Source: Stx2 converting phage I
DNA length: 61,765 nt
Sequence record: AP004402
Strand: one strand, 5' to 3'
Part shown: piece by piece, positions 27,001-30,000 of the stretch
Position numbering within the stretch: the first letter of the stretch is position 1
Layout of the letters: each line of letters starts with the position of its first letter
Position numbers: made by a program

Positions 27001-30000
27001 CATCCTGGCTGAATGCGTTCTCAGGTGGCAGCCAGTACCGTCCCGGCGCGGTGGATATCACACCGGAATCGCTGAAATTCTGGATTGACTATATCTCCGG
27101 AGGGACAGGGCGCTTCATTTCCAAAACCACGGATGCGGCGGTGAAATCGCTGAATGGTATTGATATACCGGAACAGCAGGTGCCCTTCCTGGGGAAAATT
27201 TCGGGGGAGGTGATGCCGTATGCAGACCAGCAGAAGATGTACGACCGGATGACAGAGATTGCGCAGTATCACGCAGAGCTGAAGAGTCTGACCGGTGCAG
27301 AAAGAACGGCGTTCATTGACGAGAACAACGGAAAATTGTCGATGAACGGGCTTATGCAGGATACCCGGAAGAGACTGAAGGATTTGCGTAAACAGCGTGA
27401 TGCCATTTACGCCGACAGTACTCTCAGTCTGGCGCAACAGTCGGCGATGGTGAAATCGGTAGAGCGGGATATGAAAATTGCCGTGGATCGGTTTAACCGC
27501 GAGTACAACAAAAAAGTGGGAGTGGATTAACAGAAATGGCCCCGTACGGAAGTGCGGGGCTGATTAAGAAATAAACACTCATTGACCTGTAATAACCGGA
27601 GCTATTAACATATAGTCAGAAGAGCATTTCATGTGATACAGAGAGCCGATTTATGTTTAATGAAGAAAAAGTTGCGCAAATGGCAGCGTATTTGCTGAAA
27701 AAGCATGGCGGATCTATGCGTTTCATTAAGCTGAAGCAGCAACGGTAATGGCGAATAGCATTTATGAGCAAAATAATCTTGATATGTTATTAGGCGATCT
27801 GATGTAACCGGGATGATGTTCACCCCTTATCGCCGGGGAACAATACCGGCAATCAGAATTGCGGATGGAACTATTCAGGCCCACGATGATATCGATGAGG
27901 AGTTTTTTCAGCCAGTATTGGATGGCTTTCTTATATCCAAATATACGCCATTTGACATCCTCCACGCCCTGAAGGACGGGGTTTTACAGCGCACCGGATA
28001 AGATTCGGTGTTTTGTTGAAAAATACTGTGATAACAAACAGAAAACCCGTCAGTAAGACGGGCTTAGCAAGCTGGGACGGTTACTTTAATAATTTCAGTG
28101 CCTTTACATCCACTTCAACACTGCTCAGGTCTTTATCAATTTCACCCTCAATTCTTACTTTGTCTTTCGGAGAAACATTCTGACCGGCCCATATGCTGTC
28201 ATCGATATCCGTGACAATTGTCCCGCTATTGTCACGAAACTCATAACGTTCATCACCCACTTTTTTAACGATGCTCCCTTCAAGGATAACCCATGCATCA
28301 TCCTTCAGTTCTTTTGCCTGCGCTACTGTTGAACGCTCTGCTTCAGGCCCTTGGAAACCGCCCTGCTGTGCAAAAGCGCCAAAAGACACACCAGAAATAA
28401 GTGCTGCAATCAATACCTTTTTCATTCATAGTCCTCTTTCAGAGATGAACATTCAAACAGCATTTTCAGTATGGTAAAGCGCGGGTGCGTTGAGGATGCC
28501 TGACACATCAGAGGTGGCGGGAGATTACTCCCCCGCTTGGTCTCTTACTTCTCAGATTCGTAGTCTACGAAGACAGCGACCTCCGTCTGACCGGTTCGGA
28601 TTCGCACCTCGCAGAGGTCTTTCCTCGTTACCAGTGCCGTCACTATGACGGTTAAACAGATGACGATCAGGGCGATTAACATCGCCTTTTGCTGCTTCAT
28701 AGCCTGCTTCTCCTTGCCTTTCGGCACGTAAGAGGCTAACCTACATGTGTTCAGCATGGATTGAGCCTCAGATTAATGTTAAGCGTCTTGCCGGACGCGT
28801 AATGTTAACTGGGGCTTTTCTCTATCTGCCGTTGGTGTTCATGCCCGAGGCAGATAGCCTCAAGCACCCGCAGCAATTCTACTTAACTCTCCTTTTCCCG
28901 CAAACCGTTTTTATCTCCAGCGACAAATCGAATACACAACCAGCACCACCGCCATTACTGTTCCTACATTTGCGAATGCTTCAGGCCAGGTCATTGATTC
29001 ACCTTCTGCTCAATATTTTTAAGGTCATTTTCCGCATACAGTATTGCAGTTCTTGCTGCCCGCAACCGTGCTTTGGTGTTCTTTTCTTCACGCTCGAGGC
29101 TGGCAACAGATTCTCGGAGCTGATCGTGTCTGTTATGAAGCTGTCTAATCTCTCTCACCACAGCCTCACCATCGTTCGCACACCGCAGAACATACTGAAA
29201 AGGGTCCACAACACATCCGCACTGCAAGCACAGGATAACGTGATCCTGTTCATGAACCTCAATGGCCCGATGCTTACAGCTCTGTTGTGTGTAGTTTTTT
29301 CTGCCAGTTACTGTAATGTTCAGCAGCTTCTCTTCATCGCGCTTTGGCTGCACCAGTGTGATGATATTATCGCCTTCATTTTCCATCAGTTCACCTCCTG
29401 CGGCGGTTCTGGTAGCGGCATCCAGTGTGACGGTTTCCACGACGCACCAGGAATTATCCACCCATCATTAGCGTCAGGATGCCCCGGGATGTAAGTCGCC
29501 CACTTCATTCGCCAGTCACCTTTCCTGTCAAACTCCACGGCAACAAGAACGGCTGTTTTGGTATCCGGCATTCGCTCACTACAACTTATCCAACCATCCG
29601 GAGTTACCGGAGAGTTGCCAGACAGCGCATTCTGCAACCGTTCCAGCTTAACGTATTCCTGAACCCTGTTTCCGTCGCACGCCTGAAGCCATTGCTCAGC
29701 CTTTTGCGCATCAGTGTGAAAGGCACAAGTGCGACCGTCATCAAATTGCATTTCGTAGAGGTTAGCAATCTGTTCAAACTGCGTGTGTGGCAACTTGTAA
29801 GTTTGGCTTACGAGTTCGGCTTCCAGTTCTGCTATGCGCTTCTCTGATGCTTCAAGTAACGCCTGCTTATCGCGTAGCGCTTCTTCCAGTTCAGCAACAT
29901 GGCATTCACTATCAATAAGGTTGTTCTCTGCTGCTCCCAGCTCAACTCTCAGCTTCCCAACCGTAAGCGCAATCTCCTCGTTCTCCTGGTCGCGGCGTTT

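What the first reader, a model, noticed from the sequence alone, without database searches (positions are those of the whole stretch)
28545..28700. HokD/RelF-like type I toxin in the b-region
The 51-aa product is nearly identical over its first 44 residues to what I remember of E. coli HokD. It lies among morons (YgiW-like upstream, Cys-rich ORF downstream) on the strand opposite the structural genes. It would act as a phage-borne addiction or stress module, and together with the candidate at 15745 would give two Hok-family loci in one phage.
Basis: partly seen in the sequence, partly recalled or inferred. Interest (0 to 1): 0.5.

Follow-up and report, generated by a model that had tools for sequence, protein, structure and literature searches.

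The report
Known hokW-sokW toxin-antitoxin of phage 933W
The small gene is real, but it is the already annotated and experimentally studied hokW/mokW/sokW toxin-antitoxin module of Shiga-toxin phage 933W/Sp5, so it is an ordinary, known feature.

Summary
Window 28700..28545 (-) encodes a 51-aa Hok/Gef peptide (Pfam PF01848, 81 bits). Its first 44 residues are identical to E. coli K-12 HokD, and 47 of 51 match overall.

The window is essentially Stx2 phage 933W. The 461-bp locus is 100% identical to the segment annotated mokW/hokW/sokW in GenBank AF125520 (933W) and AP000422 (VT2-Sakai/Sp5).

- an in-frame 70-codon mok;
- the 71-nt antisense SokW with its promoter;
- the conserved hok leader (Rfam RF01794, 113.5 bits);
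- a 12-bp pairing between the 5' end (tac) and 3' end (fbi) of the mRNA.

Takada et al. 2021 (PMC8621323) tested this exact sequence. HokW is toxic and SokW neutralises it. On RecA-dependent prophage induction SokW disappears, HokW reaches the inner membrane, growth arrest comes earlier and phage release doubles. That contradicts "silent remnant". It also points to a lysis-helper role rather than the proposed addiction role.

Related loci occur in 4706 of 5426 complete E. coli genomes. Novelty: already known.

Minor unexplained points: this copy lacks the terminator that follows fbi in relatives, and it lies downstream of attP on the pL strand.

The parts
28876..28904 (-). Predicted hokW promoter: -35 TTTGCG (28904..28899), 17-nt spacer, -10 TAGAAT (28881..28876), 6 nt before the inferred +1
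   Evidence: Read from the sequence. The position matches the TATAAT upstream of hokC in the alignment. It falls below the threshold of the promoter scan. The transcription start has not been mapped; it is inferred from position 1 of the Rfam model.
28695..28869 (-). hokW mRNA leader, from the inferred 5' end at 28869 to the hok start codon. It matches Rfam RF01794 'sok' on the hok-sense strand.
   Evidence: 113.5 bits against a gathering score of 59, E=4.6e-25, model positions 1-157 of 157.
28858..28869 (-). tac element (GGGUGCUUGAGG) at the 5' end of the hok mRNA
   Evidence: Pairs with fbi in the minimum-free-energy fold and in the consensus fold of 9 loci. 94.4% of cells are paired, against 34-55% when the partners are slid.
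28811..28815 (-). ucb / anti-SD (GCCCC), which sequesters the mok Shine-Dalgarno in the full-length fold
   Evidence: In the minimum-free-energy fold C56, C57 and C59 pair with G104, G103 and G101 of the GAGG at 28769..28766. Element names follow PMC9841398.
28714..28742 (+). sokW promoter: -35 TTGCCT (28714..28719), 17-nt spacer, -10 TAACCT (28737..28742)
   Evidence: Sequence. Primer YO-421 of Takada et al. replaces TAACCTA with GAGCCGG to make the 'pro-less' construct, which loses antitoxin activity.
28749..28819 (+). SokW antisense RNA, 71 nt: a 14-nt single-stranded 5' tail covering the mokW start codon, then a long hairpin and UUUU
   Evidence: Annotated as sokW in AF125520. Fold -29.9 kcal/mol, z=-4.95. 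Detected on northern blots in lysogens.
28545..28757 (-). mokW, 70 codons, in frame with hokW, with a GAGG Shine-Dalgarno at 28769..28766
   Evidence: ORF list, annotation, frame analysis.
28545..28700 (-). hokW, a 51-aa membrane toxin
   Evidence: Pfam PF01848, 81.1 bits. 100% identical DNA to annotated hokW. Toxicity and inner-membrane location are published.
28517..28535 (-). G+C-rich hairpin just after the hok stop codon. By analogy with R1 it is the protective 3' hairpin of the processed mRNA.
   Evidence: Present in all folds. The helix keeps pairing through compensatory changes in relatives (columns 359-366 with 371-378). The role is inferred from PMC9841398.
28483..28495 (-). fbi element (CCUCAACGCACCC), complementary to tac with one bulged C
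28043..28425 (-). Downstream BOF/YgiW-like gene (28425..28081) and the first intrinsic terminator on this strand after hokW (28065..28043). Possibly co-transcribed with hokW.
   Evidence: PF04076, 113.7 bits. This is the only minus-strand terminator found in 27950..29050. The terminator hairpin that follows fbi in relatives is absent here. Co-transcription is an inference.

Best explanation
This is the hokW/mokW/sokW locus of Stx2 phage 933W (Sp5), a complete and functional hok/sok-type type I toxin-antitoxin module.

A weak promoter makes an mRNA whose hok part spans about 390 nt. Its 5' end (tac) pairs with its 3' region (fbi). That closes the molecule and keeps the mok Shine-Dalgarno paired with an upstream anti-SD, so neither mok nor hok is translated. 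After 3' processing (inferred from plasmid R1) the mRNA opens. Translation of mok then carries ribosomes to the hok start.

The 71-nt antisense SokW is made from a promoter inside the leader and covers the mok ribosome-binding site and start codon. It blocks mok translation and, partly through RNase III and Hfq, neutralises the mRNA.

In a lysogen both RNAs are present and no toxin is made. When the prophage is induced (RecA-dependent), SokW disappears. HokW is then made, inserts in the inner membrane, stops growth about 40 min earlier and roughly doubles phage release.

Shown here: the sequence parts, the family memberships and the closed fold. Shown in the literature on this same sequence: toxicity, the antidote, induction and the effect on phage yield. 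Inferred by homology to R1: the 5' end, 3' processing and mok-hok coupling.
For: Sequence identity and annotation:
- The locus is 100% identical over 461 nt to the mokW/hokW/sokW features annotated in AF125520 and AP000422.
- The window is 100% identical over 24 kb to the EDL933 Stx phage.

Family membership:
- Pfam HOK_GEF, 81 bits.
- Rfam RF01794, 113.5 bits over the full model.

RNA structure:
- The full-length fold is -158.8 kcal/mol, z=-6.85. It has a 12-bp tac-fbi helix, the mok Shine-Dalgarno paired to GCCCC, and the hok start region paired downstream.
- The tac-fbi helix is conserved in 9 loci, with one U-A to C-G exchange in the R1-type loci.
- SokW folds as a 5' tail plus a terminator hairpin.

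Published experiments:
- Eleven primers from Takada et al., plus the wild-type part of mutagenic primer YO-421, map exactly in the window.
- Their constructs gave toxicity, SokW-dependent rescue, loss of rescue in the -10 mutant, partial RNase III and Hfq dependence, MMC- and RecA-dependent HokW production, inner-membrane location and a 2-fold effect on phage yield.
Against: - The hokW transcription start, its 3' end and any 3' processing have not been mapped. Two smaller RNAs on the published northern blot are unexplained.
- My fold of a 3'-truncated RNA did not reproduce the tac/ucb refolding described for R1.
- This copy has no intrinsic terminator after fbi, so the real primary transcript may be longer than the canonical hok mRNA.
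- Both promoters fall below the threshold of the consensus scan.
- The effect on phage yield is only 2-fold and comes from one study in a K-12 lysogen. That study used a kanamycin-resistance cassette replacement of the locus.
- The covariation evidence from my 9-sequence set is weak: one compensatory pair from a single evolutionary event.
Confidence: 0.92

Rival explanations
1. Prophage addiction module.
For: This is the founding function of the family on plasmid R1. The 933W record notes 'prophage maintenance'. All the RNA elements needed for differential-stability killing are present.
Against: It has never been tested for hokW. Deleting the locus did not affect lysogen growth. The toxin is switched on during induction, when the cell is doomed anyway. 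Related Stx phages such as Ss-VASD and P13374 carry only a decayed remnant at the same site, so the module is dispensable for stable lysogeny.
Confidence: 0.15
2. Anti-phage defence. The locus would protect the lysogen population by abortive infection when a lytic phage shuts off host transcription and SokW decays.
For: R1 hok/sok on a high-copy plasmid reduced the T4 plating efficiency by 42% and plaque size by about 85% (cited). Prophage accessory regions often hold defence genes (general knowledge).
Against: No data exist for hokW. The R1 effect is modest and came from a multicopy plasmid. The published phenotype is a benefit to the phage's own release.
Confidence: 0.1
3. Silent remnant. 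This is the reader's own refutation case: a decayed hok copy like K-12 hokD or hokC, with no regulation or expression.
For: Many chromosomal hok loci are inactivated. K-12 hokD lacks the leader. K-12 hokC has IS186 ending 20 bp after its stop codon. Some Stx phages carry a frameshifted remnant.
Against: Every element is intact here. Both RNAs and the protein have been detected from the native prophage.
Confidence: 0.01

Closest known systems
hokW-mokW-sokW of phage 933W (AF125520 / NC_000924) and VT2-Sakai/Sp5 (AP000422); Takada et al. 2021, PMC8621323
   Same: It is the same locus. It is 100% identical over 461 nt, with the same flanking genes L0139 and L0136. Eleven published primers, plus the wild-type part of mutagenic primer YO-421, map exactly.
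   Different: Nothing differs. The window is simply the circular permutation of the phage, with the attP core at 31749..31755.
hokD (relF) of the E. coli K-12 Qin prophage
   Same: The toxin is 47/51 identical, with residues 1-44 identical. The DNA is about 94% identical from the hok Shine-Dalgarno to fbi (hits H90 and H91 cover query positions 156-392 only).
   Different: K-12 hokD has no tac, mok or sok leader, because relE ends 71 nt upstream. It keeps an intrinsic terminator after fbi that hokW lacks. NCBI's annotation pipeline nevertheless names full-length relatives 'HokD'.
hokC (gef)/mokC/sokC of E. coli K-12
   Same: The leader architecture is the same: GGGUGCUUGAGG at the 5' end, mok in frame with hok (MokC MLNTCRVPLTDRKVKEKRA... 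versus MokW MLNTCRLASYVPKGKEKQA...), and an antisense RNA that overlaps the first 9 nt of mok.
   Different: In K-12 the hokC 3' region is interrupted by IS186, which ends 20 bp after the stop codon. SokC is annotated as 59 nt, against 71 nt for SokW. The SokW hairpin carries a 16-nt insertion relative to the Rfam consensus.
hok/mok/sok (parB) of plasmid R1
   Same: Regulatory logic and element order match: tac, ucb, mok SD, sok promoter inside the leader, hok, 3' hairpin, fbi. The tac-fbi pairing is kept through a U-A to C-G exchange.
   Different: Hok is only 44% identical to HokW. In R1-type loci mok is in the +1 frame relative to hok, whereas mokW is in frame. R1 sits on a plasmid and acts in post-segregational killing. 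For hokW the shown role is in prophage induction.

Membership tests
hok/sok (Hok/Gef) type I toxin-antitoxin | Small hydrophobic Hok/Gef peptide of about 50 aa | tested here: met
   PF01848, 81.1 bits against a cut-off of 22, covering the whole profile 1-42.
hok/sok (Hok/Gef) type I toxin-antitoxin | Conserved structured hok mRNA leader | tested here: met
   Rfam RF01794, 113.5 bits against a gathering score of 59, model 1-157 of 157, on the hok-sense strand.
hok/sok (Hok/Gef) type I toxin-antitoxin | mok reading frame that starts upstream with its own Shine-Dalgarno and overlaps the hok start | tested here: met
   A 70-codon ORF at 28757..28545 with GAGG at 28769..28766. Translational coupling itself cannot be tested with these tools.
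hok/sok (Hok/Gef) type I toxin-antitoxin | Cis-encoded antisense Sok RNA: promoter inside the leader, single-stranded 5' tail over the mok start region, terminator hairpin | tested here: met
   TTGCCT-17-TAACCT promoter at 28714..28742. A 71-nt RNA with a 14-nt tail, hairpin and UUUU, z=-4.95. Annotated as sokW. Expression and the promoter mutant are published.
hok/sok (Hok/Gef) type I toxin-antitoxin | Long-range tac/fbi pairing of the mRNA 5' and 3' ends, closing the full-length mRNA | tested here: met
   A 12-bp helix in the minimum-free-energy fold, z=-6.85. It is kept in the consensus fold of 9 loci. 94.4% of cells are paired, against 55% or less in slid controls. There is only one compensatory pair, so covariation in my sample is weak.
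hok/sok (Hok/Gef) type I toxin-antitoxin | mok Shine-Dalgarno sequestered by an upstream anti-SD (ucb) in the full-length form | tested here: met
   GAGG (mRNA 101-104) pairs with GCCCC (55-59) in the minimum-free-energy and centroid folds.
hok/sok (Hok/Gef) type I toxin-antitoxin | Refolding to a tac/ucb stem, with the mok Shine-Dalgarno released, after 3' truncation | tested here: inconclusive
   The fold of mRNA 1-357 gives a local 5' hairpin and keeps the SD-ucb pairing. Thermodynamic prediction alone cannot settle this.
hok/sok (Hok/Gef) type I toxin-antitoxin | The toxin kills or arrests cells and the antisense RNA neutralises it | not testable with these tools
   Published for this exact sequence (PMC8621323).
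hok/sok (Hok/Gef) type I toxin-antitoxin | Stable toxin mRNA and unstable antitoxin RNA, giving killing after gene loss | not tested
   Only indirect evidence exists: after MMC the hokW mRNA persists while SokW vanishes.
   The window copy has the full leader and no relBE. K-12 hokD is homologous only from the hok Shine-Dalgarno onward.

The most novel reading that the evidence does not exclude
The open question in the literature is why SokW disappears and HokW appears only on RecA-dependent induction. The genome layout suggests an answer.

In the excised circular phage, the pL operon (N ... xis, int) and L0142-L0139-hokW-L0136 lie on the same strand. They are separated only by attP (31749..31755), with no strong intrinsic terminator in between. 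N-antiterminated pL transcription could therefore cross attP after excision and run through hokW in the sense direction. That would collide with the convergent sokW promoter and shut it off by transcriptional interference. It would also make 5'-extended hok transcripts that escape the tac-dependent folding pathway. This would be an excision-gated switch, analogous in logic to lambda sib retroregulation.

In addition, this copy has lost the family's own terminator, so hokW transcription may drive the downstream YgiW-like gene.
Probability: 0.15. Interest if true: 0.4.

Novelty: already known. Interest (0 to 1): 0.07.

Why it matters
Little is new. The locus is in the 933W GenBank record (AF125520) and was characterised experimentally in 2021. 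Its value is as a worked example: a type I toxin-antitoxin carried by a medically important Shiga-toxin phage that helps the phage leave the cell rather than defending the host.

Two questions remain open and testable: how induction removes SokW, and where the hokW transcript ends in this terminator-less copy. Both would interest specialists in phage regulation only.

Tried and rejected
- The consensus promoter scan found neither the hokW nor the sokW promoter. Both hexamer pairs fall below its threshold. The sokW -10 is nonetheless validated by the published mutant, so the negative scan was not taken as evidence of absence.
- Folding a 3'-truncated mRNA to look for the R1-type tac/ucb refolding gave a different local 5' hairpin. 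I recorded this as inconclusive.
- A covariation test of tac-fbi on 9 loci gave high pairing but only one compensatory pair, which did not separate from the shuffles on most measures. I do not claim statistical support from it.
- I checked whether the window ends overlap, as terminal redundancy would. They do not.
- I rejected 'silent remnant' and 'K-12-type hokD'.
- I ran no protein database search, structure prediction or metagenome scan. The exact match to an annotated and studied locus made them unnecessary.
- K-12 hokC could not be used for the 3' end analysis, because IS186 ends 20 bp after its stop codon.

Full report
**Observation.** The minus strand of window 28700..28545 carries an ATG-to-TAA ORF of 51 codons. 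An AGGAG Shine-Dalgarno lies 9 nt upstream. The product matches Pfam PF01848 (Hok/Gef) over the whole profile, with 81.1 bits and E=4.3e-23. I translated hokD from the K-12 MG1655 record. The neighbours are as described. A BOF/YgiW-family gene lies at 28425..28081 (PF04076, 113.7 bits). ORF L0139 at 29461..28991 has no significant Pfam family (one sub-threshold Laminin_II match) and carries a CxxC motif. Both are on the minus strand, while the 2806-aa gene at 19110..27530 is on the plus strand. Relative to hok transcription, the YgiW-like gene is downstream and the Cys-containing ORF is upstream.

**What the window is.** A 24-kb stretch around the locus is 100% identical to the EDL933 Stx phage. 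Rfam finds the markers expected of an Stx2 lambdoid phage: the cIII thermometer, AsxR, STnc100 and three tRNAs. The 461 nt around the ORF are 100% identical to 43 phage records. Among these, AF125520 (933W) and AP000422 (VT2-Sakai) annotate exactly this segment as mokW, hokW and the 'SokW antisense RNA'. Converted to window coordinates:
- hokW is 28700..28545 (-).
- mokW is 28757..28545 (-).
- sokW is 28749..28819 (+).

**Anatomy.** Rfam RF01794 ('sok') matches 28869..28695 with 113.5 bits against a gathering score of 59, over the full model. The match is on the hok-sense strand and ends at the hok AUG. It therefore recognises the conserved hok leader, which contains the complement of Sok, and not the antisense RNA itself. 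Taking model position 1 as the mRNA 5' end (an inference, since it has not been mapped), the elements are as follows.

| Element | Sequence | Window coordinates |
|---|---|---|
| Candidate hokW promoter | TTTGCG-17-TAGAAT | 28904..28876 (-) |
| tac | GGGUGCUUGAGG | 28869..28858 (-) |
| ucb (anti-SD) | GCCCC | 28815..28811 (-) |
| mok Shine-Dalgarno | GAGG | 28769..28766 (-) |
| mok AUG | AUG | 28757 (-) |
| hok Shine-Dalgarno | AGGAG | 28714..28710 (-) |
| hok AUG | AUG | 28700 (-) |
| G+C-rich hairpin after the stop | | 28535..28517 (-) |
| fbi | CCUCAACGCACCC | 28495..28483 (-) |
| sokW promoter | TTGCCT-17-TAACCT | 28714..28742 (+) |

The sokW transcript starts at 28749. It has a 14-nt single-stranded 5' tail complementary to the mok start codon region, then a long hairpin and UUUU (-29.9 kcal/mol, z=-4.95).

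**RNA structure.** The 392-nt RNA from 28869 to 28478 folds at -158.8 kcal/mol, with z=-6.85 against shuffles. Three features stand out:
- a 12-bp helix, with one bulged C, joins the first 12 nt to fbi;
- the mok Shine-Dalgarno pairs with GCCCC;
- the hok Shine-Dalgarno and start region pairs with a downstream coding segment.

This is the closed, untranslatable architecture described for R1 hok (PMC9841398). I aligned hokW with eight other loci: six relatives at 86-96% identity from phages and one E. coli chromosome, and two R1-type loci from plasmids. The consensus fold keeps the end-pairing helix. 94.4% of cells are paired, against 34-55% when the partners are slid, and the R1-type loci show one U-A to C-G exchange. 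That is a single event in a small sample, so I treat it as consistent with the published covariation analyses rather than as independent proof. A fold of the 3'-truncated RNA did not reproduce the R1-type tac/ucb refolding, which is inconclusive.

**Relation to HokD and others.** K-12 hokD is homologous to hokW only from the hok Shine-Dalgarno to just past fbi. Upstream of that is relE, and K-12-derived genomes match only query positions 156-392. The window copy is therefore the complete form of the subfamily, of which K-12 hokD is a truncated member. The leader and the in-frame mok resemble hokC/mokC/sokC. Among close relatives the mok frame switches between in-frame and +1. This fits the published view that mok translation, not the Mok peptide, is what matters. 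Loci at least 80% identical occur in 4706 of 5426 complete E. coli genomes, with a median of two per genome that has any match, and in 1476 plasmid records.

**Experiments already done on this sequence.** Takada et al. 2021 (PMC8621323) cloned 28394..29000. Eleven of their primers map exactly in the window, as does the wild-type part of the mutagenic primer YO-421. Their results:
- HokW arrests growth when induced.
- The native sokW prevents this.
- Changing the -10 TAACCTA to GAGCCGG abolishes protection, and sokW supplied in trans restores part of it.
- Protection depends partly on RNase III and Hfq.
- In an Sp5 lysogen both RNAs are present before induction.
- After mitomycin C, SokW disappears while hokW mRNA persists.
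- HokW-3FLAG appears from 2 h, about 1 h before endolysin R, in the inner membrane, and only when recA is present.
- Deleting the locus delays growth arrest by about 40 min and halves phage yield.

It supports a lysis-helper role during induction. Addiction and anti-phage defence remain untested for hokW.

**What is still odd.** Two points stand out.

1. Relatives carry an intrinsic terminator (CCCGCTTCGGCGGGTTTTT) right after fbi. The 933W copy does not. Homology ends a few nucleotides after fbi, and the next minus-strand terminator is at 28065..28043, after the YgiW-like gene. An 840-nt read-through RNA is still predicted to keep the tac-fbi helix. The real 3' end is unmapped, and the published northern blot shows unexplained smaller bands.

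2. The window is the circular form of the phage. The attP core is at 31749..31755 and int at 33111..31777 (-). After excision the pL operon would therefore run, on the same strand and without a strong terminator, into L0142-L0139-hokW, converging on the sokW promoter. This could explain the induction-dependent loss of SokW, which the authors and a later review leave open. It is an untested inference.

**Second locus.** The ORF at 15745..15885 (+), 46 aa, is also a Pfam Hok/Gef member (33.2 bits). It is preceded by a sub-threshold RF01794 match at 15596..15758 (35.6 bits, E=3.7e-6). It is unannotated in NC_000924, but RefSeq E. coli genomes label it 'Hok/Gef family protein'. The phage therefore does carry two Hok-family loci.

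**Verdict.** The feature is already annotated and functionally characterised, and the proposed addiction role is not what the data show. Novelty: already known. Interest: low.

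Noticed in passing
window 15596..15885 (+): A second, diverged Hok-family locus between lom and the next ORF. The 46-aa ORF at 15745..15885 matches PF01848 with 33.2 bits. It is preceded by a sub-threshold hok-leader match (RF01794, 35.6 bits, E=3.7e-6). It is not annotated in NC_000924, but NCBI's pipeline calls it 'Hok/Gef family protein'. Similar DNA is present in 1675 of 5426 E. coli genomes.
   Followed up: partly
window 28420..28482 (-) and 28043..28065 (-): The 933W hokW copy lacks the intrinsic terminator hairpin that follows fbi in the Evi, pPE4, Rac, PPompW and E. coli 446 relatives and in K-12 hokD. The next terminator on that strand lies after the YgiW/BOF gene, which suggests a hokW-L0136 co-transcript.
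   Followed up: partly
window 31749..31755 (attP core), int 31777..33111 (-): The window is the excised, circular permutation of 933W. The pL operon and the L0142-L0139-hokW-L0136 block share the minus strand and are joined only across attP. No strong minus-strand terminator lies between int and hokW.
   Followed up: partly
window 28695..28869 (-): The Rfam family RF01794, named 'sok antitoxin', matches the hok-sense strand (the mRNA leader up to the hok AUG) and not the strand of the annotated SokW RNA. Hits to this family mark the hok leader, and the strand needs care.
   Followed up: yes
L004, L006, L009 versus window 28757 (mok start): The mok frame differs among close relatives. It is in frame with hok in hokW, Evi, pPE4, E. 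coli 446, PPompW and hokC. It is in the +1 frame in the Rac-442, P1-like and Klebsiella IncF loci. Where it is in frame, mok translation would produce a 70-aa N-terminally extended Hok.
   Followed up: partly
L014 (Shigella phage Ss-VASD) 324..468; the same is seen in P13374-type Stx2a phages: At the equivalent position next to the giant LPD5 gene, these Stx phages carry only a decayed hok remnant. It is a 39-aa frameshifted ORF with no leader, no sok and no YgiW-like gene. The module is therefore dispensable and variable among Stx phages.
   Followed up: partly
window 31221..31309 (-) and 31399..31428 (-): An Rfam sRNA-Xcc1 match (69.1 bits against a gathering score of 53) lies between attP and L0142. 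It is just downstream of a good promoter-like site, TTGACA-18-CATACT, on the same strand. It may be a structured 5' UTR or an sRNA at the head of the L0142-L0139 block.
   Followed up: no
window 54522..54781, 52865..53113, 39647..39705: Known Stx-phage RNA features are present. STnc100 (207.7 bits) sits back to back with the anti-sRNA AsxR (88.1 bits). There are also three tRNA genes and the lambda-type cIII thermoregulator.
   Followed up: no
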